64,000 nucleotides of DNA from Acidobacteriota bacterium (GCA_046765915.1 JBKPTH010000003.1:63524-127523); one strand, 5' to 3'; counted from the stretch's first letter, positions 10,825-59,119 are shown. Notes: a model not told the origin generated them from the sequence alone. A program made the numbers and translations.

Positions 10825-11070
10825 CAACCCGTCAGTTGGACTCTCCAACCCGCCGGTTGCGCTCTCCAACTCGCCAGTTGAGATCTCCAACCCGTCGGTT
10901 GCGCTCTCCAACCGGCCAGTTGGACTCTCCAACCCGCCGGTTGGGCTCTCCAACTCGGCGGTTGCGCTCTCCAACCCGCCGGTTGGGCTCTCCAATCCGC
11001 CGGTTGGACGGCTCAACTCGCCGGTTGGAAGCCCCAACTACTCAGTTGAAGAGTCCAACTCGCGAGTTGC
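10825..11070. repeat. 21-bp tandem repeat array, ~11.5 copies (consensus CCGCCGGTTG[CG]GCTCTCCAAC).
   Basis: Direct reading: ccgtcagttggactctccaac / ccgccggttgcgctctccaac / tcgccagttgagatctccaac ... with progressive degeneration toward the 3' end. Period 21 = 7 codons. It encodes SPTRRLR heptads on the + strand and LESPTGG heptads on the - strand. Confidence 0.9.
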
Positions 11071-12004
11071 CCGGCCTCATGATTCCCGCCTTGTACTGAA
11101 TCGCCTCCGCGAGATGCGCGGCGCGGATGGCATCGCTCCCTGCGAGGTCGGCGACGGTCCGGGCGACTTTGAGGGCGCCCGTCACCGCACGGACCGAAAG
11201 TCCGAGCTTCTCGACGGCCTGGTCGCGGAGGACGCTACCGGCAGGGTCGAGGCGGCAATAGTGTTGGCTCGCGGCTGAGGCGAGGGAGGCATTGAGCCGG
11301 CCGCAACGCTCCTGCTGGATCCTCCGGGCAGCGGCCACCCGGCGGGCCACGGTCTCGGAACACTCTCCGGCGCTGGATCTCAACTCCTTGAGGCTGACGT
11401 GCGGCACCGGCACGACGAGGTCGAGCCGGTCGAGCATCGCTCCGGAGATCGGGCTGAGGTAACGGGCGACCGCGCGCGGCGAGCATCGGCACGGTTCCTC
11501 ATGACGCCAGCCGCAAGGGCAGGCGTTCATCGCGGCGATCAGGAGGAACCGCGCCGGCAAGGTTCGGCTCCGCCGCAGCAAGGGCACCGTCACGGTCCCG
11601 CGCTCCAGCGGCCCGCGCAGCCCGTCGAGCACCTTCCGCCGGAAAAGCGGCAGCTCGTCGAGAAAGAGCGTCCCGTAATGGGCGAGACTGACCTCGCCCG
11701 GCTTCCCTCTGCCGCCGATCATGCCGGTCGGAGTCGTGGCCGGCGGCGGCCTGCGGAACGGCCGGCGGGGATTCGGCGGCGCGCCGTTCCGGCTCAGGGC
11801 GTAGATCCCGGCCACCTCGGCGGCCTCTTCGTCCGTCAACGGCGGCAGCAAGGAGGGCACCCTCTCCGCCAGCATGGTCTTGCCGGCGCCGGGCGGCCCC
11901 ACCATCAACAGGTGATGACCCCCTGCCGCCGCCACCTCCAACGCCCGCTTGGCGGTTTCCTGTCCGCGCACCTCGGCAAGATCCGGTAGCAGGCTCCGCT
12001 CCAC
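11042..12004 (-). CDS. YifB/ComM-family Mg-chelatase-like AAA+ ATPase lacking the N-terminal Lon-like domain (GTG start).
   Basis: Collinear with the E. coli YifB AAA+ region onward: VRGQETAKRALEVAAAGGHHLLMVGPPGAGKTMLAERVPSLLPPL, SLAHYGTLFLDELPLF, ARFLLIAAMN, LSVRAVTGALKVARTVADL, AIQYKA. The ~180-aa N-terminal domain is absent. The tail overlaps the first units of the 21-bp repeat. Confidence 0.8.
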   Translation of the reverse strand: MERSLLPDLAEVRGQETAKRALEVAAAGGHHLLMVGPPGAGKTMLAERVPSLLPPLTDEEAAEVAGIYALSRNGAPPNPRRPFRRPPPATTPTGMIGGRGKPGEVSLAHYGTLFLDELPLFRRKVLDGLRGPLERGTVTVPLLRRSRTLPARFLLIAAMNACPCGWRHEEPCRCSPRAVARYLSPISGAMLDRLDLVVPVPHVSLKELRSSAGECSETVARRVAAARRIQQERCGRLNASLASAASQHYCRLDPAGSVLRDQAVEKLGLSVRAVTGALKVARTVADLAGSDAIRAAHLAEAIQYKAGIMRPGNSRVGLFN

Positions 12005-12413: not shown

Positions 12414-12875
12414 ATGATGGAGGAGACGGAGCAGCTACTGAAGGTATTGCGCACCGCCGTGCGCGTCCTCGGCCACACAAATCAGGAGATCGAGGACAAG
12501 CTCGGCGTCTACCACGGTTACCTGGGCCGGCTGTTCAAGGGCGCCATCCAGCTCCAGTTCGAGGACATCGTCAAGATCGCGCATGCCCTCGACATGGAAA
12601 CGGGCGAGCTCCTCCAGTTCGTCTACCCGCAGACGTCCAAGCCCGCCACCGAAGGCGCCAAGCGGCTGCGCGAGACGCTGCAGCAACTGCAACCGGCGAT
12701 GGCCGTGCCCGAAGTGCCTGCCCCCACTATCCCCGAACCCGTTGCGCCTCCCGCTCCCGCCGCTGCTGCCGCTTCAGACCTGAGCGCCAGGCTCGCGCAG
12801 GACCTCGATCAGTTGGTGCAGCAGAAGCTCGAGCAGCTCGTGGCCGGGTTGTTCCGGGGAGCCGGGCGGGAGTAG
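12414..12875 (+). CDS. HTH (XRE/Cro-like) DNA-binding protein with a Pro/Ala-rich C-terminal region.
   Basis: GHTNQEIEDKLGVYHGYLGRLFKGAIQLQFEDIVKIAHALDMETGELL resembles an HTH_XRE helix-turn-helix. 153 aa. Confidence 0.55.
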   Translation: MMEETEQLLKVLRTAVRVLGHTNQEIEDKLGVYHGYLGRLFKGAIQLQFEDIVKIAHALDMETGELLQFVYPQTSKPATEGAKRLRETLQQLQPAMAVPEVPAPTIPEPVAPPAPAAAAASDLSARLAQDLDQLVQQKLEQLVAGLFRGAGRE

Positions 12876-12896: not shown

Positions 12897-13892
12897 CTAC
12901 GGTTCGGCGAAGATCACGTCGTAGGTAGGCCAGGGCCTTAAATCGCCGGTTCCTGAGCGCATCTCGACACGGGCTACATAGCGAAAGAGATTGCCGTATT
13001 GATCTCGGACCCGAGTTTGCTTGTAGGCATATTCGAGAGCCGCGACCCGCACACTGTCTAGCGACTGGATCTCCTCTGCTTGGCTCACGCCATCCCGGTT
13101 CGTATCGTTCCATACGCAAAGCTCGCGAAACTTCGAATCACGCGCGTCAACCTTGCCGTCCTCGTTGCCACCAAGCTCAGGCCCGTCCAGTTCTTCGAGC
13201 GCTCTGTACCCGACCTTCGCCGGCTTTCCGGACGCGAGAGGAGTTGCATAGCCGAAGAGCTCGCGGCCGTCGTCAATGGCGCCGTTGTGGTTCCTGTCCC
13301 AGCAAAGAAACGCGTCGTTCCCGCCTGCTTCCGTCCAGGCAATTTCTTCCGCAGCTCCATCGGCGTCGATGTCGAAGCGGACAGGCGGATTGGAGCCTGA
13401 TAGATGAAAGCCATCCAGCCGCAAATCGAGGAGGATCGGGCAGTTCTCTTTCGGAGGCGGAGGAGGTGGCTCTCCTAGATGAATGTAGTCGGTGCAAGCC
13501 GGCCCTCTTATCTCGTTGCTGTGCAGATTGTATGCGTTAGCGTGAGCAACTGCCGTGGAAGTATAACATCCAAATTCGACATCCATAATGCCGGTCACGC
13601 TGTTGGCGTAGCCAATTGGCGACACGAACTGTTCTTGATAGCGGATCCTGTGGTTGTTGGAATTCTCGACTTTGTGGTTCAGATTGATCTCTTCATATAA
13701 CCTTCCATTCGGGCCATAGAGAGTCGCCCTGGCAAAGGAAGAGACGAATGCGGACGCCGAGTACTGATACGCCCATGCTGTAATCTCGCTGTCTATTAAT
13801 GCTTGGTATCCTGGCTCTTGTGCCGAAAGAGCGCGAGCCACCAGAAGACCCGGGATAAGCCATGCGGCTGGACTACGGAGCCCAGGAGTCAT
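12897..13892 (-). CDS. Secreted protein with dockerin/EF-hand-like Ca-binding repeats; markedly lower GC (~50%) than its surroundings.
   Basis: Start MTPGLRSPAAWLIPGLLVARALSAQEP (signal peptide) with RBS GGAGG. Repeats DIDADGAAEEIAWTEAGGNDAFLCWDRNHNGAIDDGRELFG and NEDGKVDARDSKFRELCVWNDTNRDGVSQAEEI (DxDxDG-like loops). GC drops visibly across 13000..13880. Confidence 0.7.
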   Translation of the reverse strand: MTPGLRSPAAWLIPGLLVARALSAQEPGYQALIDSEITAWAYQYSASAFVSSFARATLYGPNGRLYEEINLNHKVENSNNHRIRYQEQFVSPIGYANSVTGIMDVEFGCYTSTAVAHANAYNLHSNEIRGPACTDYIHLGEPPPPPPKENCPILLDLRLDGFHLSGSNPPVRFDIDADGAAEEIAWTEAGGNDAFLCWDRNHNGAIDDGRELFGYATPLASGKPAKVGYRALEELDGPELGGNEDGKVDARDSKFRELCVWNDTNRDGVSQAEEIQSLDSVRVAALEYAYKQTRVRDQYGNLFRYVARVEMRSGTGDLRPWPTYDVIFAEP

Positions 13893-14689
13893 TGGCAACC
13901 TCCTTCCCAGAAACGAGCTTGCACGGCGAGCTCGGCGGGTTCCGAGTCCGAGAACGAATACATGGTTCCGATAGTGGGAGCCACAGCTTCGTATAGCAGG
14001 CGGAGGAAGGGTTCTTCGCCGAATTCTTCCATCGCGGCAGCGAACGCCTGGGCTCGCGCTCGGCACTTGCGCATTGCCGCACGGTCTTTTTTGAAGTCGG
14101 CAAAGGATTTGGGCTGAGGGAGGCGCAGCCGCTCCGACTCGCGCTCTAACTCGAGGAAAGGAGCCGCCGCCTTCTCCAGCCGCGGCCAGAGATCCTCGCC
14201 AAAGCCGAGGGCGGCGGCCCGGGCCTCGATCGGTTCTCTTAACTCGCGATCGCCCGGCCTGTCAGCAGGAAAACCGCGATCTAGGAGAATGTTGAACAGC
14301 TGAGCGGGCATGAGAATCTCCGGTACCCTCTTCCCATCGATGACGTCTATGGGTGGCCTGGCCTGAGGGTCCACCTTAAAGAGAGGGTCGTCCTCCTCAG
14401 GGAGCAGGAGACGATCGCGAATGGCCTTCTGCTCGGCTTCCTTCTCCCGTACCCGCGTTGCCATCGCTTCGGGATCGAACCTTTTCGCCAGCCGTTCATC
14501 GAGCGTCCATTTCCAAGCAGGTTTCTGGATAGGTACCTCCGGCCGATTCGCGGCTCCAGGATCACGCGCAGTGTCCGGCTGCTCGCCGGCAGATTGGGCG
14601 TCTCCGGCGGGAGCCCGCATAGCCAGAAGCAGAAAGGTGAGAACCGGCCACAAGAGCAGGCCACTGCTACGACTGCCAAGACGGGTCAT
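13889..14689 (-). CDS. Secreted hypothetical protein (266 aa), translationally coupled (ATGA overlap) to 12897..13892.
   Basis: Start MTRLGSRSSGLLLWPVLTFLLLAMRAPAGDAQS with AAGGAGG 5 nt upstream. Its stop overlaps the downstream start. Confidence 0.65.
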   Translation of the reverse strand: MTRLGSRSSGLLLWPVLTFLLLAMRAPAGDAQSAGEQPDTARDPGAANRPEVPIQKPAWKWTLDERLAKRFDPEAMATRVREKEAEQKAIRDRLLLPEEDDPLFKVDPQARPPIDVIDGKRVPEILMPAQLFNILLDRGFPADRPGDRELREPIEARAAALGFGEDLWPRLEKAAAPFLELERESERLRLPQPKSFADFKKDRAAMRKCRARAQAFAAAMEEFGEEPFLRLLYEAVAPTIGTMYSFSDSEPAELAVQARFWEGGCQ

Positions 14690-14883
14690 GCATGCCTCCT
14701 TGCCTGAGCAGCGTGGCACCCTGCAGCGGACGGCGAAATCACAACGGAATCTCAGCCGGCCGTCTTTTACTTCAGGCCCTTCTTGTCTACCATGGTTCTG
14801 AGAGACAGGTCAAGGCTCGGCGCCAGAGAGAGTTGTCGTTCGAGCTTGAAAGGAACAGCTCAGGAGGGAGACACGCCCTACCC

Positions 14884-16164
14884 CTAGCGCTTCGCCTCCG
14901 GATCGCTCTCCAGCTTGCGCAGCTCGGCCGCCACCCTCTCGACCATCAGCCGCGTCGCCAGGCCGGCCTTGAGGCAATAGTGCAGGATGGCGATGCTGAC
15001 CAGCGCCTCGCGGTTCACCCCCAGCGCCAGGAAGACCTCGTAGGCGGTCGTCATCACCTCGCGCGCCTGACGGGTGTTTCCCCGGCCCAGGAGCACCCCC
15101 GCGAGGTCCAGCGAGGCGAGCGCGGCGTCGTAGGCGCGGCCGGCGGCTGTCATCCCGTCGCGCACTTCGAGGAAGGTCCGCTCCGCGCGCTCCAGCCTCT
15201 CGAGCCCGGCGTCGACGCGGCCCTCCAGCCAGCGCAGCTTGAGCTGGTTGATGCGGCCGCCCTGGTGAGTCTGCAAGGGCCGGAGCTCGAAGAGCTGCCG
15301 CTCCGCCTCGCGGAAGCGGCCACAGTCGCAGAGGATCCAGACCTGAGTCTGCATCGCGGCAAAGGCCAGGTCCGGGTCGCGCGAGTCCTCGATGAGGGCG
15401 AGGCTCCGCCGCAGGATGGCCAGGGCTTCCTCGGGATGGCCGGCGTAGGTCGCGCAGATGCCCAACTGGACGAGCGCTTTCCCGGCGAGGTGCTTGTCGC
15501 CGAGGGAGCGGTAGCCGCGGTAGACCTTCTTGAGCCTCGCGGCGGCCTCGTGGAACCGCCGCCGAGCAACGTCGAGGGGAGCCTCTCGTTCGAGGAGGAA
15601 GATCTCAAGCGAGAGATCCCGCGTGCCCAGCTCGAAGAGCTCGCGGGCGCGGCCCATGGCGGCGGCCGCCTCGTCGAGCCGCTGCGCCACCCGCAGGGCG
15701 TTGGCCACCGCGGCCTGGGCCCGGCACTGGAAGTCGAACGTCTGCTTGCAGCCATACCGGCGCGCCTTCAGGCGGATGGAAACCCGGTACGCCAGCCCGG
15801 CGAGCAGGAGCATGCGCTGCGGATTGTCGTGGCGGATTGCCCAGCTCCTCTCCAGGAGGGCCAGGAACCGCGCGTACATCCCGAAGTGGGAGGGGAGCTC
15901 CGCGGCGACCTTGACCTCGTCTTCGCTCTCGAACCAGGCGAGGATCTTCCTCGCCTGCGCCTCCTGGACGCGCAGGTGGCGCTCGAGCCCCGGGAGGCCG
16001 CCGAAGACCTTGTCGAGAACGTCGTCGTAATCGCGGTCCCGCGGCGCAATGGAGAGCGCGGCCGGCGGGCCGGCGCGGCGGCGGAGCGCGGCGAGCAGCC
16101 GGCCGCGGCAGCTCTCCCAGAGCCGCGCGAAACGGCCCCGCATCGTGTTGCCGCGGCGGGTCAC
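14884..16164 (-). CDS. TPR-like helical-repeat protein (paralog of 17355..18805).
   Basis: 426 aa. Shares the ...YDAALASLDL... block and overall helical-repeat character with the downstream + strand paralog. Confidence 0.65.
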   Translation of the reverse strand: MTRRGNTMRGRFARLWESCRGRLLAALRRRAGPPAALSIAPRDRDYDDVLDKVFGGLPGLERHLRVQEAQARKILAWFESEDEVKVAAELPSHFGMYARFLALLERSWAIRHDNPQRMLLLAGLAYRVSIRLKARRYGCKQTFDFQCRAQAAVANALRVAQRLDEAAAAMGRARELFELGTRDLSLEIFLLEREAPLDVARRRFHEAAARLKKVYRGYRSLGDKHLAGKALVQLGICATYAGHPEEALAILRRSLALIEDSRDPDLAFAAMQTQVWILCDCGRFREAERQLFELRPLQTHQGGRINQLKLRWLEGRVDAGLERLERAERTFLEVRDGMTAAGRAYDAALASLDLAGVLLGRGNTRQAREVMTTAYEVFLALGVNREALVSIAILHYCLKAGLATRLMVERVAAELRKLESDPEAKR

Positions 16165-16952: not shown

Positions 16953-17357
16953 ATGAGACAGACGAGCCATGATTCTGCGGCAAAGCTTGAGATTGTGCTG
17001 ACCCCTACCGAGCTGGAAGACCTGTCCGCGCGGATCGGGGAGCGGATCGTCCGCCTGCGCCAGCGGCGGGGATGGGACCGCGTGGAGCTGGCGCGGCGCC
17101 TCGGGGTGCGGCGCGAGAGGCTGGCGAAGTGGGAGCAGGGGAAGTGCGCGCCGCCCCTGGAGATGCTGATCCGCCTGGCCCGCACACTCGGTGTGTCCGT
17201 GGACGAGCTGATCACCGGCGAGCCCACGGTTCAGGGGTGTCTGACTCCGCGGCAGTACGAAGACCTGGAGCTCCTTCTCGAAGCCGTGCGGAAGGTGCTC
17301 CACGAGCCGGGGCCGGTTTCTTTGCTGGGCAAGGACGCCCAAGGAGGCAGGCGATGA
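16953..17357 (+). CDS. XRE-family HTH transcriptional regulator.
   Basis: LRQRRGWDRVELARRLGVRRERLAKWEQGKCAPPLEMLIRLARTLGVSVDELI is a canonical HTH_XRE. RBS AGGAG. The stop overlaps the ATG of the next gene (ATGA). The AT-rich upstream region carries direct repeats TGATAGAG/TGATAGAC (16865..16902). Confidence 0.85.
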   Translation: MRQTSHDSAAKLEIVLTPTELEDLSARIGERIVRLRQRRGWDRVELARRLGVRRERLAKWEQGKCAPPLEMLIRLARTLGVSVDELITGEPTVQGCLTPRQYEDLELLLEAVRKVLHEPGPVSLLGKDAQGGRR

Positions 17358-18805
17358 CATCCCTGACGGACCGGGTTGGAAAGGCTTTGAACCGCAAGAC
17401 CTACAGCGAGAGGCTGCAAGGCGTCCTGGCGGAGCTTTCGGAAGAGCGGAAAACGGACCTCCTGCACCTGCTGAGCTGCCCCGTCTGCCTGCCGGGTGCC
17501 CGCGAAAGCCTGCAACTCGCGCCCGGCCCTGACCTGCCCGAGCAGGCGCCGCCGGTGTACTCGGCGGAGTCCGGGGCTCTCCTCGCCGCGATGGAGGCCC
17601 GCGTGCCGGTCCTGGTGAAGCAGATGGAGGAGCAGAGGGCCGCGGCCCGGCGGCTTCTCGACGAGCTGCTGGCGCATCCGGCCGAGCGGCAGCTTGCGCT
17701 CGCCCGCAGCCCCGAGTTCGGCAGCCTCGATCTCGCCGACCTGCTTCTCGAGGAGAGCGCCGGAGCGCAGACAGACGATCCCGCGCGGGCCGAGGGCCTG
17801 GCCCGGCTGGCGCTGCCGATCCTCTATCAGCGCCATGCGGGAAAGGGTGCGGATCGGATCGCGGATCTGAAGGCCCGCGCCCTCGTTCTCCTGGGAAATG
17901 CCCGGCGCCTGCAAGGAGATCTCGAGGAAGCGGAGGCGCGGTTCCGGGAGGCGGCGTTTCACCTCACCGGTCCGCCCGACGGCATCGCGCGCGCCCTCTA
18001 CTGCCAGATGCTGGCCGCCTTGCGCCGGGACCAGCACCGGGAGGACGAGGCGATCGGATTGCTGTGGCGGGCGGCGCGGCTCTACGAGACGAACGGCGCC
18101 ATTCTCGATGCGGCGGCCTGCGCCGCCGAGCTGGGATTCCTCTATCTCGGGCAGGATCAGGTCCACGAAGCCTTCTGTCTCGCGGCAGCCGTCCCGTATC
18201 TGGATCTCTACCGCGACCTCCGGCTGGCCCTGCGGGCCCGGCTGGCGTTCGCCGTCGTCCAGGCGCGCCTCGGCTACAAATCGGCGGCGCGGAAATCAGT
18301 GGAGGAGGCGTGCCCGCTGTACTGCCACATCACCAGCTCGGCACAGATGGCGGAAGTGGCCTGGATGGAAGGCAAGGTGGCCCTGCTCACCGGTGACCGC
18401 GAAGACGCCGCGGCCCTGCTGGACACGGCGCGGCAGAGCTTCCTCTTGGTGGGGAACCTCTACGACGCGGCCCTCGCTTCGCTGGATCTCGTCCTGGCGT
18501 TTCCCAAGGCCCGCCGCCGTGCCGTGGAGGTGCACGCCCTGGTTCACGAGATCGTCGAGCGGTTCCCGGCGGGCCTGGACAGAGCCGAGGCCGTGAAGGC
18601 GTTGGCGGCCGTGGAGATGGCGGCCGCCGGCGTGGTGAAAGGAGGGTTCGAGGACGTGGTGGCCATGGCCGCCGAGCGGTTGCGCCGTGTCCGCCGCTAT
18701 CCGCAACTGCGCCTGCCGAGCCCGTTCCCGCCCTTCCACCCGCCGGCCCATGGAGCTGACGGTGAGAATCGCTCCGACTCAACGCTTGATCTCCGGAGGC
18801 CATGA
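17355..18805 (+). CDS. TPR-like helical-repeat protein co-transcribed with the XRE regulator.
   Basis: The start MTSLTDRVGK is preceded by AAGGAGG. 483 aa. Paralogous to 14884..16164. The long ORF-track entry 17072..18805 has an implausible upstream extension. Confidence 0.7.
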
Positions 18806-30167: not shown

Positions 30168-32660
30168 ATGCTCACTCCGATGAGACAGGCGCAGACGCCG
30201 GCGGGAACAGCGAAGTCGAGACTTTTTTCGGCCGCCCTGCTGAGCGCCGTCCTCCTCGCCGGCGCGCCGGCCGCGGCGCAGTCCATCGACGAGGCGATCT
30301 CCCTGCACGCCGCGGGACGGCTGCGCGAGGCGTTGCGCGCGTACCGGTCGGTGGCCGCGGCCACCGCCGGCTCGGATCCCGCCGCGGCGGCCACGGCGCT
30401 CAACAACGCCTGCGTCCTCCTCGGCGATCTGGGAGATTTCCGCGCCGCGCTCCCCGACTGCCGGGAGGCCTTGCGCCTGCGCCGCGTTCTCGGCGATCCG
30501 GCGGCCGTCGCCGAGACGCTCAACAACTTGGGGCTGACGCTCGAAGCGCTGGGCCGGCCGGACGAGGCGGAGCCGCCGTTCCGCGCCGCCCTGGCGCTCA
30601 ACCGCAAGCTCGGCGACGCCGAGGCGCAGGCCATCAACCTGGGGAACCTCGCGGCCCTCGCCCTCACCCGCGGCCGCTACTCCGCGGCGATGCGGCTCTA
30701 CGTCGAAGCCGGGGATCTCGCGGCGCGGCACCGCGGCGAGCCCTGGGCGGCCGGGCAGCGGGCCATCGCGCGCATCAACCAGGGCGTGGTCTTCGAGAAG
30801 ATGGGAGCATTCCGCGAGGCGCTCGGCCTCTACAAGGAGCTGCTCGCCGGCAGCGAGGCCCTGGAGCCGCGGCGGCGCGCCGCCCTGCTCGTCAACGCGG
30901 GGGTGATCCAGCGCAACCTGGGAGATCCGGTGAGCGCCGTGGCCGCCTTCCAGGAGGCCGTCGCCGTCTTTCGCCGCGGCGGGGATCTGGCGGGGCTCTC
31001 GAACGCGTTCCTCAACCTCGGCCTCGCGCTGCATCTCAACCTCGAGCGGCCGGCGGAAGCCGAGGCGGCGTACCGCGAAGCGCTCGCGCTGGCCCGGCAA
31101 AGCGGCGACCGCACGGAGGAGATCCAGGACCTCTTCTATCTGGGCCGCCTCCTCGTGGCGCGCCGGCGGCTCGCGGAGGCGGAGGAGGTCTACCGCCATT
31201 GTTTGGCGGCGGCGCAAGAGAGCGGCTCGGCGGAGGGCCTGTGGTCGGCCCGCGAAGGGCTGGGCCGGACGGCCGCGGCGCGCGGGGATCTCGCCGGCGC
31301 CCTGGCGCATTTCGAGCAGGCGCTGCGCGAGATCGAGCGGGTGCGGCAGGGCCTGACGCGCGAGTCGTGGCGCGCCGGCTACTTCGGCGACAAGCGCGCG
31401 GTGTACGCGGCCACGGTGGATGTTCTATGGCGCATGGAACGCCGGAGCCGGGGACGCGGCGCCGCCCGCGCTCTGGAAGTGGTGCAGCGGGCCAAGGCGC
31501 GGGATCTTCTCGACGCCTTGGGACCCGGTAAGGCGCCGGCGGCGCCGCTGCGCGCGGCCGAGATCCAGGAGCGGGCCGGGGAGGGGACGGTGCTCGAATA
31601 CTTCTTCGGCGAGGACCATCTCTATCGCTGGGAGATCCGCCGGAACGGCCTGCGGATGGCGGATCTCGGTCCCAAGCGGTCGGTGCTGGAGGCCGTCCTC
31701 CGGGTCCACGGCAGCCTGGCCCGCGGCGCCGAGCCTCCGCCGGGAGACGTGGCCCGGCTGTCGCGATCTCTCCTCGCGGCAAAAGAACCGGGAGGTCTCC
31801 TCCGCATCGCGCCGGACGGCCTTCTCCATTACCTGCCGTTCGAAATCCTCGAACGCTCGGGGGTTCCCCTGGTCGAGAGAGCGGCCGTGGTGTACCTGCC
31901 CAGCGCCTCGGTGCTCGGATCGCGGCGGACGGGAGGAGGCGGAACATCTCTCCGCTTGATCGGATTTGGAGCTCCGCGCCAACCGCGATCCGTGCCCCTG
32001 CCGGCCGCAACGCGGGAGCTGGCGGCGATCGGCCGCCTGCTCGGCGGGCGCAGCGCCCTGCTGCTGGGCGAGCGGGCGACGGAGGAGGCCTTTCGCCGCG
32101 CCGTGACCGGCGGCGCGCGGGTGGTACACCTCGCGACGCACACCGTGGTCGCCGAGGGCCCGGGCGGCGGCGCCGCGATCCTTCTCAGCCCCGGCGGCAA
32201 GGACGACGGCCTGCTGCATCCGGCGGAGATCGCCGGCCTCCGCGGCCGCTGCGATCTCGCGGTGCTCGCGGCCTGTCGCACGGCCCTGGGCTCCGGCGAG
32301 GAGGGGCGGGCCCTGGCCTCCCTCACCGGCTCGTTCCTCGCCGCGGGCTCGCGGTCCGTGGTGGCGACGCTGTGGGACGTCGGAGACGCTGCGACCGCCG
32401 TCTTCATGGAGCAGCTCTACGCGCAGCTCGGAGGCGGGCAGACTCCGGCCGAAGCCCTGCGCCAGGCCAAGCTGCGGCTGCGCGCCGATCCGCGGTGGAA
32501 CCGGTCCGCCCTCTGGGCCGGTTACGTCCTGGTGGGGGAGGGTCCGCGCGTGGCGCCGCGGCGCTGGCCGTGGGAAGCGGCCATGGGGGTCCTCTTAACG
32601 CTGGGCGGGCTCGCGGCCCTCCTCCTCAGCGGAAGGCGAGGGCGCCGTTCTCGATCTTGA
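30168..32660 (+). CDS. TPR-repeat + CHAT (caspase-like) domain protein with signal peptide and C-terminal hydrophobic anchor.
   Basis: N-terminal TPR repeats (LNNLG..., LGNLA...). The C-terminal CHAT domain carries a His/Cys dyad context HLATHTVVAEG ... CDLAVLAACRTALG. The tail WEAAMGVLLTLGGLAALLLSGRRGRRSRS is a TM helix plus basic residues, resembling a C-terminal sorting signal. Confidence 0.75.
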   Translation: MLTPMRQAQTPAGTAKSRLFSAALLSAVLLAGAPAAAQSIDEAISLHAAGRLREALRAYRSVAAATAGSDPAAAATALNNACVLLGDLGDFRAALPDCREALRLRRVLGDPAAVAETLNNLGLTLEALGRPDEAEPPFRAALALNRKLGDAEAQAINLGNLAALALTRGRYSAAMRLYVEAGDLAARHRGEPWAAGQRAIARINQGVVFEKMGAFREALGLYKELLAGSEALEPRRRAALLVNAGVIQRNLGDPVSAVAAFQEAVAVFRRGGDLAGLSNAFLNLGLALHLNLERPAEAEAAYREALALARQSGDRTEEIQDLFYLGRLLVARRRLAEAEEVYRHCLAAAQESGSAEGLWSAREGLGRTAAARGDLAGALAHFEQALREIERVRQGLTRESWRAGYFGDKRAVYAATVDVLWRMERRSRGRGAARALEVVQRAKARDLLDALGPGKAPAAPLRAAEIQERAGEGTVLEYFFGEDHLYRWEIRRNGLRMADLGPKRSVLEAVLRVHGSLARGAEPPPGDVARLSRSLLAAKEPGGLLRIAPDGLLHYLPFEILERSGVPLVERAAVVYLPSASVLGSRRTGGGGTSLRLIGFGAPRQPRSVPLPAATRELAAIGRLLGGRSALLLGERATEEAFRRAVTGGARVVHLATHTVVAEGPGGGAAILLSPGGKDDGLLHPAEIAGLRGRCDLAVLAACRTALGSGEEGRALASLTGSFLAAGSRSVVATLWDVGDAATAVFMEQLYAQLGGGQTPAEALRQAKLRLRADPRWNRSALWAGYVLVGEGPRVAPRRWPWEAAMGVLLTLGGLAALLLSGRRGRRSRS

Positions 32661-35421: not shown

Positions 35422-38648
<3,227 letters not shown>

Positions 38649-38652
<4 letters not shown>

Positions 38653-41715: not shown

Positions 41716-44463
41716 CTAGCTCGCGCCTTTGGCAGATCTGCGGGAGTCGAGGAGGGCCCGGAACTCCGGGTCCTCCTTGAAGGAGCGGAACTCGGGGATC
41801 GTGAACCACTCCCTCCGCAGACCTTTTTTGAGGGCGAGCAAAGCGTAGTAGCGGGCCGACACGCGGTCTCCGAGGAGCGCATAGAGCTGGGCCGCTTGGT
41901 TGAGGACTTGGACGTCCTCTGGTCTTTGTTTAAGCACTTCGTCGGCGATCTGTTCTGCGTCGGCCCCGTTGCCCGTCCGCGCGAGGCACTGCGCGTACAG
42001 CATGCGAGTGCGCGCATCTAGGAAAGGTGGTCCGGCGGCTAGTTCCTTCGCTAGGGTCCCATATAGGCGCCGCGCTTCGACAAGGTCTCCCTGGGCTTCG
42101 AGCGCAGTGGCCAGATTGAAGCGGGTCAGGAGGTGGCTAGGCTTCAAGGCGAGAGCCCGGCGGTATGCCTCGGCGGCCCCTGCATAGTCGCCGAGGAGGA
42201 AGCGGACGAAACCGAGATTCGTAAAGTAAGGGCGCGTTGGCCGGACGCGGATCAGCCTTTCGTACAGCGTCATGGCGCGCTTCAGGTCTCCGAAGCCTAC
42301 CTCCAGCGCCGCTATGTTCTCCAGTACGAACTGGTTGTCTGGTTGCGCCGCCAAGAGACCTTTAAGGCGAAGTTGGGCGCTGTCGCTCGCACCCAAGCGG
42401 AATTCAAGCGTTGCTACTTCCAGGATGTTGCGCCAGGTGGGCCGTCGGTGGGCGACTTCCTCTCTTAGATGGAAAGCCTGTTCCAACTCTCCCTGGGCCT
42501 CCAGGAGGTCGGCCCTGGCGCTCTGCACACGCGCGTCGCCGGGAGCCAGCTTCTCCAGCCGAGCTAGCGTAGTACTCGCCGCGTCGAGCTGCGCTGCCTC
42601 CAATTCGATTCGGATACGGGTGAAGAGGACCCCTGGATCATAAGGGGCGGTTTTCTCAGCTCGAGCCACATAGCCGAACGCTCGACCAAGGGTTCCTTGG
42701 TTGCGCGCGATGCCTGCAGCAAGCAAATAAGCGCCGACCAGGCCAGGTGAGGCCCGCAGTAGAGAATCCAACCGGGCAAGCTCGTCGTTTCCGAGACGTT
42801 CTCCGCGGTCAACCCGGTGCTCTAGCTGAATGTAAGCGGAATAGTCCTGGGGTCTAACTTTTCCGCTTGGCGATCCCGACCGGAGAGGATGGTCGGAGTA
42901 GATCTGCTGTACGTTGGCTCGCACTCCCTCAGCGAGCTGATGGGCGTTCTCGATACCCATCTGGACTTCGAATGGCCCGACCGTGGCCAGAACCTCACCT
43001 CCGAGCTTGCGGAGACGGCGGAAGACGACATGACACCAATCTCCCTGGCAGTTGAGGCGGGGGAGGAGCACCTCGTCCGCTTCCGCGGCGCGCAGTCTCT
43101 CGATTTCAGCGCCGCTCTTCTCATTCCGCTCGGGTGGATCAAGGGGCTGCAGACTCTTGAGGGAGACGAGCGTGGCGAGGGTTGCTTCCATCACGTCAGA
43201 GGCAACGAAGGAAAGCTCCGCATCTTTCCCGACTGACTTCACAACCGGGCGCAAGACCGCCACCCGCACTGGTGGCTTCGATGCGAGGCGCCAGGGTCGC
43301 CACAAGAGGACAATGATGAGTGCGCTGATTGCCAGCGCCGCAGTGACGAGGCCCTTCCACAGCCCTTTCCTGCTGGGGCGACGGAGAGTCGCCGACCCTT
43401 TCGGCAACTCCTCCGATTCGAGATCGGCCAGGAGCTCCGCGGCGTTTGCATAGCGCTCGGCCCGGTCTTTGGCCAATGCTCGGTCGACCACGCGGGCCAG
43501 ATCCGGCGGGCGGCCGCGCTTCAGCGGTTCAGGCTCATGGGTCAGGATCGCTGAGACCACCGCTTCCATGCTCTCGCCGTTAAAGGGTCGCTGGCCGGCG
43601 ACCATCTCATACAGCAGCACCCCCAGCGACCAGACATCAGTGCGGCTGTCCACCGGCTCGCCACGGATCTGCTCGGGAGACATGTAGGCGGGCGTTCCCC
43701 AACTTGCGCCGGTGCGGGTGAGGGAGACTTCGTCGCCCTTCAGGCGTGCGATGCCGAAGTCGAGGATCTTCGCCTCGCCGCGACGAGTCAGCATCACGTT
43801 GGCCGGCTTGATGTCGCGGTGGACGATCCCGGCTTCGTGAGCGCGCGCCAGGCCTCGCGCTATCTGGATCGCCACCTCCCGGGCCTCCGCGAGCGGCAGC
43901 GGCCCGCGCCGGATCCTCTCCCGCAGCGTCTCTCCCTCGTAGTAGGACAGGACGATGTACAGGCGGCTATCGCTTTCGCCGACATCGTGGATAGTGCAGA
44001 GGTTGGGATGGTCGACGGCCGCCGCGGCCCTCGCCTCACGAAGGAACCGCTCTTTCGCCTTGCGATCTCGGCTGAATTCCGGCGGCAGGACCTTGACCGC
44101 CACACGGCGTCCGAGCCGCGTGTCCTCCGCCTCGTAGACTGTTCCCATGCCGCCACCGCCGATCTCGCGGAGGAGCCGGTACGGTCCCACCTGGCGGCCT
44201 ACGAGATCCGTCACGACCTCGTCCTCGTCGGCCTCGTCACCGAACAGATCCGCGGCGTAGTCGCCAGCCGGCACACCGAGAAAGCTGCCGGCCTTCGCGT
44301 CTGCTACTAGGAGGGCTTCGACCTCTGCACGTAGGTCCGAATCGCCGGCGCAAGCTTGGTCGAGAAGAGCGCTGTGCTCCTCAGGGGGAAGATCCAAGAC
44401 AAGGTCGAGAATCGCTTCGATCCGCCGCCAGTGGGCGACATCCGTCGGCGAGTCTGTCCTCAT
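41716..44463 (-). CDS. Ser/Thr protein kinase with TM segment and C-terminal TPR repeats.
   Basis: Hanks kinase motifs GGGGMGTVYEA, VAVKVL, HRDIKPANVML, DFGIA, GTPAYMSPE. TM ALAISALIIVLLW. TPR-like C-terminal half. The start overlaps the upstream sigma stop (ATGA). Confidence 0.9.
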   Translation of the reverse strand: MRTDSPTDVAHWRRIEAILDLVLDLPPEEHSALLDQACAGDSDLRAEVEALLVADAKAGSFLGVPAGDYAADLFGDEADEDEVVTDLVGRQVGPYRLLREIGGGGMGTVYEAEDTRLGRRVAVKVLPPEFSRDRKAKERFLREARAAAAVDHPNLCTIHDVGESDSRLYIVLSYYEGETLRERIRRGPLPLAEAREVAIQIARGLARAHEAGIVHRDIKPANVMLTRRGEAKILDFGIARLKGDEVSLTRTGASWGTPAYMSPEQIRGEPVDSRTDVWSLGVLLYEMVAGQRPFNGESMEAVVSAILTHEPEPLKRGRPPDLARVVDRALAKDRAERYANAAELLADLESEELPKGSATLRRPSRKGLWKGLVTAALAISALIIVLLWRPWRLASKPPVRVAVLRPVVKSVGKDAELSFVASDVMEATLATLVSLKSLQPLDPPERNEKSGAEIERLRAAEADEVLLPRLNCQGDWCHVVFRRLRKLGGEVLATVGPFEVQMGIENAHQLAEGVRANVQQIYSDHPLRSGSPSGKVRPQDYSAYIQLEHRVDRGERLGNDELARLDSLLRASPGLVGAYLLAAGIARNQGTLGRAFGYVARAEKTAPYDPGVLFTRIRIELEAAQLDAASTTLARLEKLAPGDARVQSARADLLEAQGELEQAFHLREEVAHRRPTWRNILEVATLEFRLGASDSAQLRLKGLLAAQPDNQFVLENIAALEVGFGDLKRAMTLYERLIRVRPTRPYFTNLGFVRFLLGDYAGAAEAYRRALALKPSHLLTRFNLATALEAQGDLVEARRLYGTLAKELAAGPPFLDARTRMLYAQCLARTGNGADAEQIADEVLKQRPEDVQVLNQAAQLYALLGDRVSARYYALLALKKGLRREWFTIPEFRSFKEDPEFRALLDSRRSAKGAS

Positions 44464-55126: not shown

Positions 55127-55738
55127 TCAGTGTTCGAGATACTTGTGGACACAGCCCTCCAGCTTGCGGCGAACGCGGTGAACCCGGATGCGCAGCGCGT
55201 TGAGCTCGATTCCCATCTCCTGGGCGAGAGTCTGCCGGTTCCGGATGTTGTCCTCCCCTTGGTGGTAGCGGAGCATCAGGTCCCTCTCGTTCTCGGCCAG
55301 TTTGGCGAGGCACCGGCGAAGGCATTCGAGGAGGGGATCGTCGGCCTCGGGCACAGGCGGAGGTGGAGGCCATCCGCCGCTCTCCAAAGCTCGGCGTTGT
55401 CGTGAAGATTGCCGCAGAACCTCCTTGTAGACGAGATGGGCAACGCCACAGAAATACCCATAGGGATCGCTCGACCGGAGCTTGACCCCTTCCGCTATAC
55501 GGCGCGAGACGCGGTTGATGGTCTCGTCCGCCAGGTCTTCGGGAGCCTCGCACCCACGCCACTCGAAGAGCCGGATGAGCCTGCGACGGATCTCCTCGTA
55601 GAGTCTGGCCGCCCGGTCGCGGTCGTCCGGATCGAGCTGCGCGAGGAGCGCCTCGAAACCTTCCTTGGTCAAGCCTCGCGGCTGGCGCGGGGGCTTGCCA
55701 TTCTTCCCATTCTCGCCATTCCCTCTCGTCACCTCCAT
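55127..55738 (-). CDS. ECF sigma factor.
   Basis: Start MEVTRGNG... Region 2 (ARLYEEIRRRLIRLFEWRG..., DPYGYFCGVAHLVYKEV) and region 4 (ENERDLMLRYHQGEDNIRNRQTLAQEMGIELNALRIRVHRVRRKL). Overlaps the 3' end of the TPR-CHAT gene by ~10 nt. Confidence 0.8.
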   Translation of the reverse strand: MEVTRGNGENGKNGKPPRQPRGLTKEGFEALLAQLDPDDRDRAARLYEEIRRRLIRLFEWRGCEAPEDLADETINRVSRRIAEGVKLRSSDPYGYFCGVAHLVYKEVLRQSSRQRRALESGGWPPPPPVPEADDPLLECLRRCLAKLAENERDLMLRYHQGEDNIRNRQTLAQEMGIELNALRIRVHRVRRKLEGCVHKYLEH

Positions 55739-58700
55739 TCTCCCTGCAGTGAGAACCCGGCCCAATAGAAGGGCGATCTCCAACTCGGCTTGCGCGCCAC
55801 TTCGAGCTGTGCCTGACGCAGGGCGGCAGCGGGCGAGAGTCCGTCGCGGAGCATGCCGCGATAGAAGGTCGTCATCAGCTCGGCGGTGGCCCGGTCCTCG
55901 ACGCTCCACAGGCTGGCGAGCACGCGCGCGGCGCCGGCGTACATGAAGCCGCGCGTCAGTCCCACCAGCCCCTCGCCGCGGATCTCTTTGCCGAGGGCTG
56001 TCTGGCAGGCCGAGAGCACGACCAGGTCGGCCCGAAGGCGGAGGCTGTAGATGTCGCTGAGCCGCAAGTATCCATCCTGGTGTTGGCCGTTCTCATCGTA
56101 GAGGGACATCACCAGACGCGAGAGCTCCGGACGCTCGGTTTCGATGACACCGTGGGTGGCGAAGTGAACGGTGCGGAAGAGATTCAATCTGCCGTCCGTC
56201 ACGGCGGACCGCGAGGCGGCACAGCCTACCGCCTTGAAAACCTCTTCCGGAGGAAGGAGCGCCGCGATCGCGTCCGCCTCTTTCCCCGAAGCACGCAGAC
56301 GGCGAAGATCGGGTTCCACGGTCGATTCCGGAGCCTGGCCTCCCCGCGTTTGTTCCACGGATGTGGATGGCAGCGCGGACGGCCCTTCCGTGCTTGGGCT
56401 GTGCGAAATCCGCTTGTCGTCCGGCTCGAAGACCGGATCCGCGAAGATGGCCAGCCTCCGGGGTGCCGGCTGCCGGTCGCGAAGCTCGCGCCGCAGCACG
56501 GCCAACACGGAGGCGGAAGGCAGATTCACGATCTCGTGGCCGCTGACGAGAGGTTCTCCAGTCGAGGGGAGAGGCAACGCCGCGAACGGCACGTACTGCA
56601 GCGCGCCGTCAGCCACGATCAGCAGCGGACGATCGCCGAGGAGCGGCTCGGCCGGTTGGAGGATCAGCCGGGATAGGTCGCGGGCCACTTCCTCGACTTT
56701 GAGGTCGGCGGCGCGCCGCTCCTGCGCCGGAGGGCGCCCGCTGCGTACGGTGAGGAGCTGGTAATAGTCGCGGGCCGCCGCTTCGATCCGCGCACGCCCC
56801 GGCAGCTCGAAGCTGGCAAAGGAGTCGGCGGTGACAGCCCAGAGGAAGCTCTTCTCGACACCGAGGGAGTACTCGAGCAGCAGAGCCCCGCCATCCAGCA
56901 CCTGGCGCTGGATCTCCTCCAGGCTGAGGGGCTGCGCCTGGGTGAGCGCGGCATAGCGAGGGCTGCTCTGGCGCAGCTCCACCTGGGCTCGCCGATACGC
57001 ATCGAGGGCCTCTTGGAGCCTCCGCCGGGCTTCCGCCAGCTTCTCGGAGTCCGAGTTTTCCTGCTTCAGCAGCTCACGCAGATGGTAGTCGCGGGCGCTG
57101 AGGTCCTGCCGGGTTTGCCGCTCTCTTTCGAGGACGGCGGGCTCCGCTCCCAGATCGATCTGGGCTTGCGCTTCGTTCAGGATCTCGAGCAGGCTGCGCG
57201 CGCGGGCCCGCTCGCTCGCTCGCAGGGCCTCCGCCGCAAACCCCTCCATCGGCCTTTGTACATGGAGAGCCATCAGGGTGTTCATCTGGAGCTCGTAGAT
57301 CTCCTGCGTGGAGGCCAGGAAAGAGGTCTTCGTATCCGGGTCGACCAGTCGACCACGCCACAACTCGATCAAGTCGAGGATGGGACGGAGCCGCGAGAGG
57401 GTGCCATCCAGGTCGCCGCCTTCCCGGGCCAACCGCGCCAGGTCAAGGTTGATCTCGGCCTCGCGGCCGCGATCTCCCCGCCGGCCGGCGAAGGATAGCG
57501 CCTGCAAGAGCTCGGCTTCGGCGGCGGCTTTGTCGCCCAGATCCCGCAGGACGCTTCCCAGCGCGTAATGCGACATGGCCTGCTCTTCCCGCGTTCCGTC
57601 CAGGCTGACCGCTTCGCGAGCCCAAGCCGCCGCCTGCGTCGGCTGCTCCCCCCGCAGGAGGAGCGCGAGCCTCGCGAGCGCGAAGACTTGGATTTTCCGA
57701 TTCCCGATCTGGCGTCCCAAGGCCAAAGCCCGGCTGAGAGAGTCCCGCGCTTCTGCGAGCTCCCGGCGATGGCTGTAGACGTCCGCCAGATTGATCAGGA
57801 TCGTAGCGGTCATCCCGCGATCACCGGTCGAGACGGTCATGTCCAGGGCGGCCTTGTAACGATCGAAAGCCTTCTCCCATTCACCGAGAACGCGGTGGGT
57901 GCCGCCCAGGTTGGTCAGGATTCTGATCTCTGCCGAGCGGTTGGAGGATTGGCGGGCCAGGGTCAGAGCTTGTGTGTAGAGCCCGAGGGCAGTCTGCATC
58001 TCACCGAGATGGTCATAACCGATCGCCAGATTGTTCAGCACGTTGAACTCTGTCGTAAGATTTCCGGACTGCTGCGCCTTCTCGAGAGCCTGGCGCTGCA
58101 GGTCCACCCCTTGCCGACTCTCGCCCGCTTCGTCGGCGAGCCGGCCGAGGAGGTACAGGTTATCCGCCTGCAGCCCGGCTTCTCCCAACTCGCGGGCCAG
58201 GTCGAGCGCCTGATCGTGCGCTGCTCGGGCCTCCTCGGGACGATTGAGATTCCACAAACAGCGTCCGACCCAGGTGAGCGCTTCGGCCTGGAAAACCCTG
58301 CTCCGGCGGCTGGTCTGACCGCCCCAGTCCACCGCGGCCTGACGGAAGTCCGCTAATGCCTGGTCGGTTGCCGATTTGTAGCGGAGACGGCCAAGGCGGT
58401 AGAGGATCTCCGCGCCCTTTTCCCGGTCGCCCACTTGACGCCAGAGGGTAAGAGCGTGCTCGAAAGATCCGATCCGATCATCCGAGGAGAGGGCGTCCCA
58501 GGTAGCCCGGACCGCTGTGGCCCTCACCTGGTCCGCCTCGGTCGGTTTTCTTGGACCCTCGACTCTCAGGAAGTAACGGCCGGAGCCCTCGCCCGAAGCG
58601 TTCACCTCGAGCCGGTAGGACCCTGGGTTCGCTGCCACGACAGCGAGCTCCTGAGCGTCATCCGCATAGTCGTCGGGTCCTGGGGAATCCGCCCCGGTCA

Positions 58701-58980: not shown

Positions 58981-59119
58981 CCTGTCTTCGATACCTGCAA
59001 CTTCCCCCGAGCGCATCAGAATTAGCGAAGGCACAACCTATTTTATCGCCTCCCGATCATGTCGCGGGACAGAACGGAAAAAGGGCGGAAATGCGGCGAA
59101 TTCGCGCTAAGCTAGCCCT

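What the first reader, a model, noticed from the sequence alone, without database searches (positions are those of the whole stretch)
12897..14689. Low-GC two-gene secreted module with dockerin/EF-hand-like calcium-binding repeats: probable horizontal acquisition
GC content drops to roughly 50% across 13000..13880, within a ~68% GC background. The encoded secreted protein carries two DxDxDG-type loops (DIDADGAAEEIAWTEAGGNDAFLCWDRNHNGAIDDGRELFG; NEDGKVDARDSKFRELCVWNDTNRDGVSQAEEI) reminiscent of dockerin/EF-hand modules. It is translationally coupled (ATGA) to an upstream 266-aa secreted protein. The module may be a cell-surface assembly or adhesion module of foreign origin.
Basis: seen in the sequence. 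Interest (0 to 1): 0.5.

Follow-up and report, generated by a model that had tools for sequence, protein, structure and literature searches.

The report
Calcium self-processing module with swapped nucleophile
The two low-GC genes encode a conserved pair of secreted proteins; one ends in the calcium-triggered "self-processing module" known from the meningococcal FrpC protein, but its catalytic aspartate is replaced by cysteine, a swap shared by a large, unstudied class of small secreted proteins in Acidobacteriota.

Summary
The two genes, the ATGA overlap and the Asp-rich loops are real. The GC dip is real but milder than stated: 56% over 13000-13880 against 67.5% for the window. GC3 is 0.61 and 0.66 against 0.88±0.07 for other window genes.

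- It is small and has a Sec-type signal peptide.
- It has no RTX repeats.
- The scissile Asp-Pro is Cys-Pro.

In 120 homologues the junction residue is C114/T4/S2 and never D. In 124 more distant small proteins ending in an SPM it is S69/C28/T26 and never D, A or G.

Gene A (266 aa, secreted, helical, no PDB fold match) sits immediately upstream of B in every Thermoanaerobaculia locus examined.

Low GC3 recurs in the A-B pair at unrelated loci in other Thermoanaerobaculia genomes. It is therefore a family trait, not evidence of recent foreign acquisition.

Best reading (inferred, about 0.5): calcium-triggered autoprocessing through Cys/Ser/Thr (thio)ester chemistry, releasing or ligating the N-terminal Ig-like domain. 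I class it as a new variant of a known kind.

The parts
12897..13892 (-). Gene B, 331 aa: signal peptide, Ig-like beta-sandwich, Pro-rich linker, Cys-Pro junction, C-terminal SPM domain
   Evidence: ORF and translation. 172 homologues, all carrying PF26745 'SPM'. AF2 model pLDDT 89.
13818..13892 (-). B signal peptide (residues 1 to about 25, MTPGLRSPAAWLIPGLLVARALSAQ)
   Evidence: Basic N-region, hydrophobic core and A-x-A-like end, read from the sequence. Helix 9-22 in the model. The family consensus keeps this pattern.
13491..13802 (-). B N-terminal all-beta (Ig-like sandwich) 'cargo' domain, residues about 31-134. Conserved C109 and C133, plus an H73/H117/N119/H124 cluster.
13443..13478 (-). 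Pro-rich linker (residues about 139-150, LGEPPPPPPKEN)
   Evidence: pLDDT below 50 for residues 140-145. Pro/Glu-rich in all homologues.
13437..13442 (-). Junction Cys151-Pro152, equivalent to the scissile Asp414-Pro415 of FrpC
   Evidence: The phmmer alignment starts at P152, which aligns to the first residue of 6sjw (P415). The junction residue is C114/T4/S2/D0 in 120 homologues and S69/C28/T26 in 124 more distant small proteins. Pro is invariant.
12909..13439 (-). SPM (self-processing module) domain, residues 152-328, with EF-hand-like Ca2+ loops (D199-E211, D236/N243-D252, D263-E274, plus D174-D178)
13889..14689 (-). Gene A, 266 aa: secreted helical partner protein with conserved KPAWKWTLEERLAKRFDPEAM motif, C209 and C-terminal ...EGGCQ (C265)
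   Evidence: ORF. 80 homologues; all named ones are Thermoanaerobaculia and none has a Pfam domain. Alignment A2. AF2 pLDDT 87, pTM 0.76. No PDB fold match. Found immediately upstream of B in L001, L004, L005, L010-L012 and L089-L092.
13899..13903 (-). Shine-Dalgarno GGAGG for B, embedded in the Glu-Gly-Gly codons at the 3' end of A. The ATGA overlap follows at 13889-13892.
   Evidence: Sequence. The same arrangement occurs in L005, L089 and L090, and in degenerate form in L001 and L091.
14695..14700 (-). Shine-Dalgarno AGGAGG, 5 nt upstream of the ATG of A
   Evidence: Sequence.
14884..16164 (-). Upstream TPR protein (426 aa) with normal GC3 of 0.93; a recurrent neighbour and possible regulator. 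The association is inferred.
   Evidence: Pfam TPR_12 E=1.2e-10. Homologues lie next to A-B pairs in L001, L004 (there fused to HTH_3) and L012 (two copies), and next to a more distant SPM gene in L016.

Best explanation
A and B form a conserved, translationally coupled operon of two Sec-exported proteins, native to Thermoanaerobaculia (Acidobacteriota).

Shown:
- B is a signal peptide, an Ig-like beta-sandwich 'cargo' domain, a Pro-rich linker and a C-terminal domain.
- The C-terminal domain is a true structural and sequence homologue of the FrpC self-processing module. That module is a Ca2+-driven folding switch that strains the peptide bond at its own N-terminal boundary.
- The catalytic Asp before the invariant Pro is replaced by Cys. 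Relatives have Ser or Thr there, and never Asp, Ala or Gly.

Inferred mechanism:
1. After export into a Ca2+-containing compartment, the SPM folds.
2. The boundary nucleophile (Cys151) attacks a strained backbone carbonyl. The most likely route is an N-to-S acyl shift at Asn150-Cys151, as in inteins and Hedgehog. A less likely route is a beta-thiolactone at Cys151-Pro152.
3. This produces a (thio)ester, which is then hydrolysed or transferred to a nucleophile.
4. The N-terminal domain is thereby released or covalently ligated.

A is a co-secreted partner (chaperone, receptor or target) of unknown fold.

The low GC3 is a stable property of this fast-evolving gene family. It is not a mark of recent foreign DNA.
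For: SPM homology:
- phmmer to 6sjw_A gives E=4.5e-23, with the alignment starting exactly at Pro152=Pro415.
- Precomputed PF26745:SPM is on all homologues.
- The Trp pair (W186/W261), three EF-hand-like loops and D325 (=D579) are invariant.

Nucleophile swap:
- The junction residue is C114/T4/S2 in 120 homologues.
- It is S44/T12/C5 in Acidobacteriota genome loci.
- It is S69/C28/T26 with no D, A or G in 124 small representatives.
- By contrast it is loosely constrained (P15/A10/S10/D7...) in SPM-like repeats of giant proteins.
- Sequences with S or T at the junction keep all four other conserved Cys, so C151 is not a disulfide partner.
- The Cys residues of A do not covary with the junction residue either.

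Supporting context:
- Residues near the FrpC 'port' co-vary with junction type: T187 against V452, H/R266 against Q524, Y215 against D478.
- The SPM is at the extreme C-terminus (median 4 residues follow it), and 72% of small representatives have a signal-peptide-like N-terminus. This layout resembles Hedgehog-type C-terminal autoprocessing domains.
- FrpC chemistry: the bond at this boundary is strained into a twisted amide by Ca2+-driven folding (PMC7078468). D414A abolishes cleavage (PMC7846742).
- Operon conservation.
- Family-wide low GC3.
- Host taxonomy.
Against: - No experiment or proteomic datum shows cleavage of any Cys/Ser/Thr-Pro SPM.
- In FrpC the strained bond is residue 414-415. 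A classical N-to-S shift would instead act on 413-414, so the geometry must differ.
- The first Ca2+ site next to the junction is degenerate (D421 becomes R158), and D478 becomes Tyr.
- The S/T/C preference could reflect another role, such as a modification site or a hydrogen-bonding cap.
- I could not inspect model coordinates to check where Cys151 sits.
- The role of A is pure inference from gene linkage.
Confidence: 0.5

Rival explanations
1. Non-cleaving calcium module. The SPM-like domain of B is only a Ca2+-dependent folding, stabilising or adhesion domain, like the SPM-like repeats in giant adhesins. The junction Cys/Ser/Thr would have a structural or modification role, and no autoprocessing occurs.
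For: - Giant proteins carry 2-4 SPM-like repeats with Pro, Ala or Ser at the junction. These are presumably non-catalytic.
- The catalytic Asp required in FrpC is absent.
- The first Ca2+ site and D478 are altered.
Against: - The junction residue is restricted to the three side-chain nucleophiles in about 240 diverse small proteins, with no Ala or Gly. Ala is common (10 of 56) where constraint appears relaxed.
- Pro at +1 is invariant.
- Residues near the port co-vary with junction type.
- The domain always sits at the C-terminal end, directly after the cargo.
Confidence: 0.3
2. One reading: a dockerin/EF-hand-type module that docks onto a cohesin-like partner to build a cell-surface assembly.
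For: DxDxDG-type Ca2+ loops are present. Both proteins are secreted. The N-terminal domain of B is a beta-sandwich.
Against: - No Dockerin or EF-hand Pfam hit at E<=1.
- A is helical, not cohesin-like, and matches no PDB fold.
Confidence: 0.02
3. Recent horizontal acquisition from a lower-GC foreign donor explains the composition. Function is left open.
For: - GC3 z-scores are -3.4 and -4.1, and the drop is confined to A-B.
- A-B pairs sit in different genomic contexts in different MAGs.
- B diverges much faster than CarB.
- The nearest relatives outside the class occur in lower-GC Acidobacteriota.
Against: - All named homologues of both genes come from the host's own class.
- The same low GC3 persists in homologues only 45-60% identical, in six other contigs. 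An ancient transfer should have ameliorated by now.
- No tRNA, integrase, transposase or convincing flanking repeats.
Confidence: 0.12
4. Classical FrpC-type clip-and-link: Asp-anhydride formation followed by an Asp-Lys isopeptide bond.
For: Same fold and Ca2+ loops, and the invariant Pro.
Against: There is no Asp at the junction in any of about 240 relatives. D414A abolishes the reaction in FrpC (PMC7846742).
Confidence: 0.02

Closest known systems
[quoted passage not shown]
   Same: - Same domain boundary, starting at an invariant Pro.
- EF-hand-like Ca2+ loops, the T-stacked Trp pair and an Asp equivalent to D579.
- The cargo lies N-terminal to the module.
   Different: - The junction residue is Cys (Ser or Thr in relatives), not the catalytic Asp.
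- D478 becomes Tyr.
- The first Ca2+ loop is degenerate.
- There is a conserved 5-residue insertion (PELGG in B; its Gly-Gly is conserved across the S/T/C type) in the third loop.
- The host protein is 331 aa with a Sec signal peptide, no RTX repeats and no T1SS signal, and the SPM sits at the extreme C-terminus.
- The literature describes the SPM as exclusive to RTX proteins over 1000 aa (PMC7078468).
Hedgehog/intein (Hint) and other Cys/Ser/Thr cis-autoprocessing domains (GAIN/GPS, SEA, Nup98)
   Same: - A C-terminal autoprocessing-type domain whose boundary residue is strictly Cys, Ser or Thr.
- The cargo lies N-terminal to it.
- The proposed N-to-S/O acyl shift gives a (thio)ester that can be hydrolysed or transferred.
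   Different: The fold is unrelated, the trigger is calcium, and there is no sequence similarity. This is a functional analogy from general knowledge, not a tested relationship.
frpD-frpC operon (FrpD lipoprotein, encoded upstream, binds the FrpC N-terminal fragment; PMC5233953)
   Same: A gene of about 270 aa for an exported protein lies immediately upstream of the SPM-protein gene, in the same operon.
   Different: A has no lipobox and no sequence hit to FrpD or any other PDB chain. It is all-helical with no PDB fold match. Binding between A and B is untested.
Dockerin type I (PF00404) and canonical EF-hand
   Same: Short Asp/Asn-rich Ca2+-binding loops of DxDxDG type.
   Different: There are no HMM hits. 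The domain size, topology and context all differ.

Membership tests
SPM (FrpC-type self-processing module, PF26745) | Sequence homology to the FrpC SPM over the whole domain | tested here: met
   phmmer against PDB: 6sjw_A E=4.5e-23, B residues 152-303 aligned to chain residues 1-147. Precomputed PF26745 on B and on the 120 listed homologues.
SPM (FrpC-type self-processing module, PF26745) | SPM fold: two perpendicular beta-sheets plus a helix-turn-helix | tested here: met
   [not shown]
SPM (FrpC-type self-processing module, PF26745) | EF-hand-like Ca2+ sites D462-E474, D499-D511 and D521-E532, and the W451/W519 pair | tested here: met
   D199/N201/N203/E211, D236/N243/D245/D252 (with a 5-residue insertion) and D263/N265/D267/E274 are conserved. 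W186 and W261 are invariant.
SPM (FrpC-type self-processing module, PF26745) | Fourth Ca2+ site D419/D421/D423/G424 next to the junction, and the transient fifth site D478/D579 | tested here: inconclusive
   D156, D160, G161 and D325 (=D579) are kept. D421 becomes R158 (a variable column), and D478 becomes Y215 (84% Tyr).
SPM (FrpC-type self-processing module, PF26745) | Scissile Asp-Pro bond (the Asp forms the anhydride; D414A is inactive) | tested here: not met
   Pro152 is invariant, but the preceding residue is Cys151. It is C/T/S and never D in 120 homologues and in 124 small representatives. The Asp requirement is from PMC7846742.
SPM (FrpC-type self-processing module, PF26745) | Ca2+-dependent autocatalytic cleavage and cross-linking | not testable with these tools
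   This needs recombinant protein, Ca2+ and mass spectrometry.
SPM-bearing RTX exoproteins (FrpC/ApxIVA class) | Large (over 1000 aa) T1SS substrate with GGxGxD nonapeptide repeats C-terminal to the SPM | tested here: not met
   B is 331 aa with no GGxGxD motif. It has an N-terminal Sec-type signal peptide, and the SPM ends 3 residues before the stop codon.
Dockerin (PF00404) / EF-hand (Pfam clan) | Match to the family HMMs | tested here: not met
   hmmscan against Pfam-A at E<=1 returned only a sub-threshold SdrD_B hit (E=0.052). NCBIfam returned nothing.
FrpD-like partner (for gene A) | Sequence or fold similarity to FrpD; a lipoprotein signal | tested here: not met
   [not shown]
Genomic island / recent HGT | Atypical composition, mobility genes or a tRNA or repeat boundary, and homologues in foreign taxa | tested here: not met
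   Composition is atypical. There is no tRNA and no convincing flanking repeats. Neighbours are HTH and TPR genes. Homologues come only from the host's class, with the same low GC3.

The most novel reading that the evidence does not exclude
Cys/Ser/Thr-Pro SPMs may be a previously unrecognised class of Ca2+-triggered protein autoprocessing and ligation modules. They would generate a C-terminal (thio)ester, or a beta-(thio)lactone, instead of the FrpC aspartic anhydride.

Acidobacteriota would use them widely to release small secreted, often Cys-rich, cargo domains or to attach them covalently. In Thermoanaerobaculia, the co-encoded protein A would be the dedicated partner or acceptor.
Probability: 0.4. 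Interest if true: 0.8.

Novelty: new variant of a known kind. Interest (0 to 1): 0.6.

Why it matters
The SPM is the only known protein module that turns an ordinary peptide bond into a reactive anhydride on a calcium cue. It underlies the NeissLock bioconjugation technology. The literature treats it as confined to giant RTX proteins and dependent on Asp-Pro.

A large natural class shows a different pattern. It comprises at least 124 distinct 50%-identity clusters among the closest relatives, drawn from about 19,700 SPM-related clusters. In this class the same fold sits at the C-terminus of small Sec-exported proteins, and the Asp is systematically replaced by Cys, Ser or Thr.

This suggests one of two things. 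Either it is a second calcium-gated acyl-transfer chemistry, giving thioester or ester products that would be useful for ligation. Or it shows how such a module is repurposed.

The question is directly testable with one recombinant protein. It also gives a first functional handle on an abundant set of hypothetical secreted proteins in soil Acidobacteriota.

Tried and rejected
- **Dockerin/EF-hand:** Pfam and NCBIfam scans of A and B gave no significant hits.
- **Defence or phage origin:** PADLOC gave nothing. PHROGs gave only phrog_3677 'protease', matching the SPM part.
- **Cys151 as a disulfide partner within B:** rejected. Homologues with S or T at the junction keep C109, C133, C197 and C259.
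- **Cys151 paired with a Cys of A:** rejected. Partners of S/T-type B keep both Cys.
- **A as an FrpD-like or cohesin-like protein:** no PDB sequence match and no fold match.
- **Island boundaries:** no tRNA. Only short, imperfect repeats at chance level. No convincing promoter or terminator signal for the operon.
- **Paralogues in the window:** none.
- **AFDB fold search for A:** the library was unavailable.
- **Organism name:** the cluster look-up gave none. CarB was used to place the host instead.
- **Literature:** searches for 'self-processing module' and 'clip-and-link' found only Asp-Pro work on FrpC, ApxIVA and NeissLock.
- **Background GC3:** the estimate is biased upward because frames were chosen by GC3. 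I use it only as a trend.

Full report
**1. Observation**

The region holds two minus-strand genes. B is 12897..13892 (331 aa). A is 13889..14689 (266 aa). The ATG of B overlaps the TGA of A as ATGA at 13892-13889.

Each gene has a good Shine-Dalgarno sequence. A has AGGAGG at 14695-14700. B has GGAGG at 13899-13903, inside the last codons of A. Both products begin with a Sec-type signal sequence.

The GC dip is real but overstated:
- 13000-13880 is 56.1% GC and 13400-13850 is 51.7%. The window is 67.5%.
- It is nonetheless essentially the lowest-GC stretch of the 64 kb. Only 1 of 1263 sliding windows is lower.
- The third codon position carries the signal. GC3 is 0.611 for B and 0.655 for A, against 0.881±0.066 for 36 other window genes (z = -4.1 and -3.4). 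The immediate neighbours are 0.82-0.93.

**2. What the calcium loops are**

Pfam-A and NCBIfam scans gave no dockerin, EF-hand or other significant hit. A search of 5.8 billion proteins returned 172 homologues of B; the 120 listed all carry the precomputed domain PF26745, which another tool names 'SPM'.

A sequence search of the PDB confirmed the assignment. B residues 152-303 align to the self-processing module of N. meningitidis FrpC (6sjw_A) at E=4.5e-23. The alignment begins exactly at Pro152, which matches Pro415, the first residue of the released SPM.

Mapping onto FrpC:
- Kept and conserved across the family: site D462-E474 (B D199-E211), site D521-E532 (D263-E274), the Trp pair W451/W519 (W186/W261) and D579 (D325).
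- Kept with a change: site D499-D511, which has a conserved 5-residue insertion.
- Degenerate: the site next to the junction, where D421 becomes R158.
- Replaced: D478 becomes Tyr215.

**3. The unexpected part**

In FrpC the SPM cleaves the Asp414-Pro415 bond. The Asp side chain attacks its own carbonyl in a Ca2+-strained, twisted amide and forms an anhydride (PMC7078468). D414A abolishes the reaction (PMC7846742).

In B the residue before the invariant Pro is Cys151 (…KENC|PILLDL…). The junction residue across relatives is:

| Set | Junction residue |
|---|---|
| 120 homologues of B | C 114, T 4, S 2, D 0 |
| Genome scan: at least 550 relatives, best 80 loci, almost all Acidobacteriota | S 44, T 12, C 5 |
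| 124 small proteins (under 900 aa, one full-length C-terminal SPM) among the best 150 representatives | S 69, C 28, T 26; no D, A or G |
| SPM-like repeats of giant proteins (1000-6700 aa) | P 15, A 10, S 10, D 7, T 3 |

Notes on the table:
- In the genome scan, three apparent 'D' cases were regex mis-hits on a later motif.
- The exhaustive HMMER search of 1.84 billion representatives found 19,666 SPM-related clusters at E<=1e-3.
- Four junctions in the small-protein set could not be parsed.

Restriction to the three side-chain nucleophiles is therefore specific to the small secreted class.

The Cys is not a structural disulfide partner. Homologues with S or T at the junction keep all four other conserved cysteines. 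The two conserved cysteines of A do not covary with the junction residue either.

Several positions co-vary with junction type:
- T187 (97%) against V452, next to the 'port' Trp
- H/R266 against Q524
- Y215 against D478
- L164 against T427

The small class has a uniform layout:
- 72% have a signal-peptide-like N-terminus.
- The cargo has a median length of 161 aa.
- The cargo is often Cys-rich just before the junction.
- After the cargo come [S/T/C]-Pro, the SPM and then the stop codon (median 4 residues after the domain).

B has no RTX nonapeptide repeat. The literature I could search describes the SPM as exclusive to large T1SS RTX proteins with Asp-Pro. I found no paper on non-Asp variants.

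**4. The rest of the module**

An A homologue lies immediately upstream of B in every Thermoanaerobaculia locus examined, usually with the same overlap. The arrangement recalls frpD-frpC, but A is not FrpD-like.

A cytoplasmic TPR protein (14884-16164) has homologues beside A-B pairs in L001, L004 and L012, and beside a more distant SPM gene in L016. In L004 it is fused to an HTH_3 domain. XRE-type HTH genes flank the pair in the window.

**5. Horizontal transfer?**

The window is chromosomal and belongs to a Thermoanaerobaculia bacterium. CarB at 35422-38652 is 84-96% identical to CarB from Thermoanaerobaculia MAGs. All named homologues of A and B come from the same class.

A-B pairs in six other contigs show the same GC3 depression. 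In three of them the neighbours are visible and unrelated to each other. The pairs have GC3 0.58-0.77, against about 0.9 for the neighbours, although the proteins are only 45-60% identical.

More distant SPM genes across Acidobacteriota also tend to fall below their neighbours (the estimate is biased, so I use it only as a trend).

There is no tRNA, mobility gene or convincing flanking repeat. B diverges much faster than housekeeping genes: its best non-self hits are 86, 70 and 62% identical, then 58% or less.

The composition is therefore a persistent trait of a fast-evolving secreted gene family, which may be mobile within the phylum. It is not a sign of recent foreign DNA.

**6. Mechanism**

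Shown:
- SPM fold and Ca2+ loops
- A boundary nucleophile under strict selection
- Position of the SPM at the C-terminus
- Signals for export
- Linkage of A and B in an operon

Inferred:
- After export, Ca2+ folds the SPM.
- Cys151 then attacks a strained backbone carbonyl. The most plausible route is an N-to-S acyl shift at Asn150-Cys151, by analogy with inteins and Hedgehog. A beta-thiolactone at Cys151-Pro152 is less likely.
- The resulting (thio)ester is hydrolysed or passed to a nucleophile, releasing or ligating the Ig-like domain.
- A is a partner of unknown role.

I put this at about 0.5. The main rival is a non-cleaving Ca2+-dependent structural module, at about 0.3. The dockerin reading and the classical anhydride reading are contradicted by the data.

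**7. Verdict**

B belongs to the SPM superfamily by fold and sequence, but it fails two defining features of the described family: the Asp-Pro bond and the RTX/T1SS context. I class it as a new variant of a known kind, with interest 0.6. One recombinant-protein experiment would decide the question.

Noticed in passing
window 10825-11028: A 21-nt tandem repeat (consensus CAACCCGCCGGTTGGGCTCTC), 9.7 copies at 81% match. It lies between the fatty-acid-hydroxylase gene and the Mg-chelatase-like gene. Read as protein, it gives PTGGLES/SNPPVGL heptad repeats on either strand.
   Followed up: partly
window 11042-12004 (-): A ComM/YifB-type Mg_chelatase plus Mg_chelatase_C protein of only 320 aa. It lacks the N-terminal ChlI/Lon-like domain usual in ComM. 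The gene is called the same way on an independent contig (L008). I did not establish whether it is a truncation or a natural short form, and no missing 5' fragment was looked for.
   Followed up: partly
window 13893-13906 (-); L005, L089, L090, L091: The conserved C-terminal Glu-Gly-Gly-Cys codons of A (GAA GGA GGT TGC) also form the Shine-Dalgarno sequence of B. Part of the 'EGG' conservation may therefore be a nucleotide-level constraint.
   Followed up: partly
window 16953-17357 (+) and 17354-18805 (+); 14884-16164 (-); 12414-12875 (+): An XRE-type HTH gene overlaps the start of a TPR gene by 4 nt. A second TPR gene and a weak HTH_3 gene flank the A-B pair. Homologous TPR and HTH-TPR genes recur next to A-B pairs in other MAGs (L001, L004, L012). 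This suggests a dedicated regulator.
   Followed up: partly
window 30168-32660 (+), 55729-59034 (-), 41716-44463 (-): Two large TPR-CHAT domain proteins and a Ser/Thr kinase-TPR protein. The 39-46 kb region is a second, broader GC-poor zone (about 57-63% GC) containing several genes with GC3 of 0.64-0.73.
   Followed up: no
representative proteins P0208, P0231, P0236, P0241, P0273, P0286, P0307 and others: Giant proteins (1000-6700 aa) carry 2-4 shortened SPM-like repeats with Pro, Ala, Ser or Asp at the junction. Within one protein, only some repeats have the Asp-Pro needed for clip-and-link.
   Followed up: partly
L012 3836-4519 and 4832-5557: Two tandem copies of an A homologue precede one B homologue in one Thermoanaerobaculia MAG. 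Another MAG has at least three B paralogues (locus tags VKK31_09050, VKK31_14425, VKK31_17715).
   Followed up: no
B residues 73, 117-124 (window about 13521-13676): The Ig-like N-terminal domain has a conserved polar cluster: H73 (invariant), H117-A-N119-A-Y-N122-L-H124 and Y110. This suggests a metal- or ligand-binding face. No matching family was found.
   Followed up: no
B residues 151-285: PHROG family phrog_3677, annotated 'protease' (profile of 1125 positions), matches the SPM part at E=7.6e-11. SPM-like segments therefore also occur in phage proteins.
   Followed up: no
tool libraries: PF26745 (SPM) is listed in the precomputed Pfam annotations, but the local Pfam-A copy did not report it for B. 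A local 'no Pfam hit' result was misleading here.
   Followed up: yes
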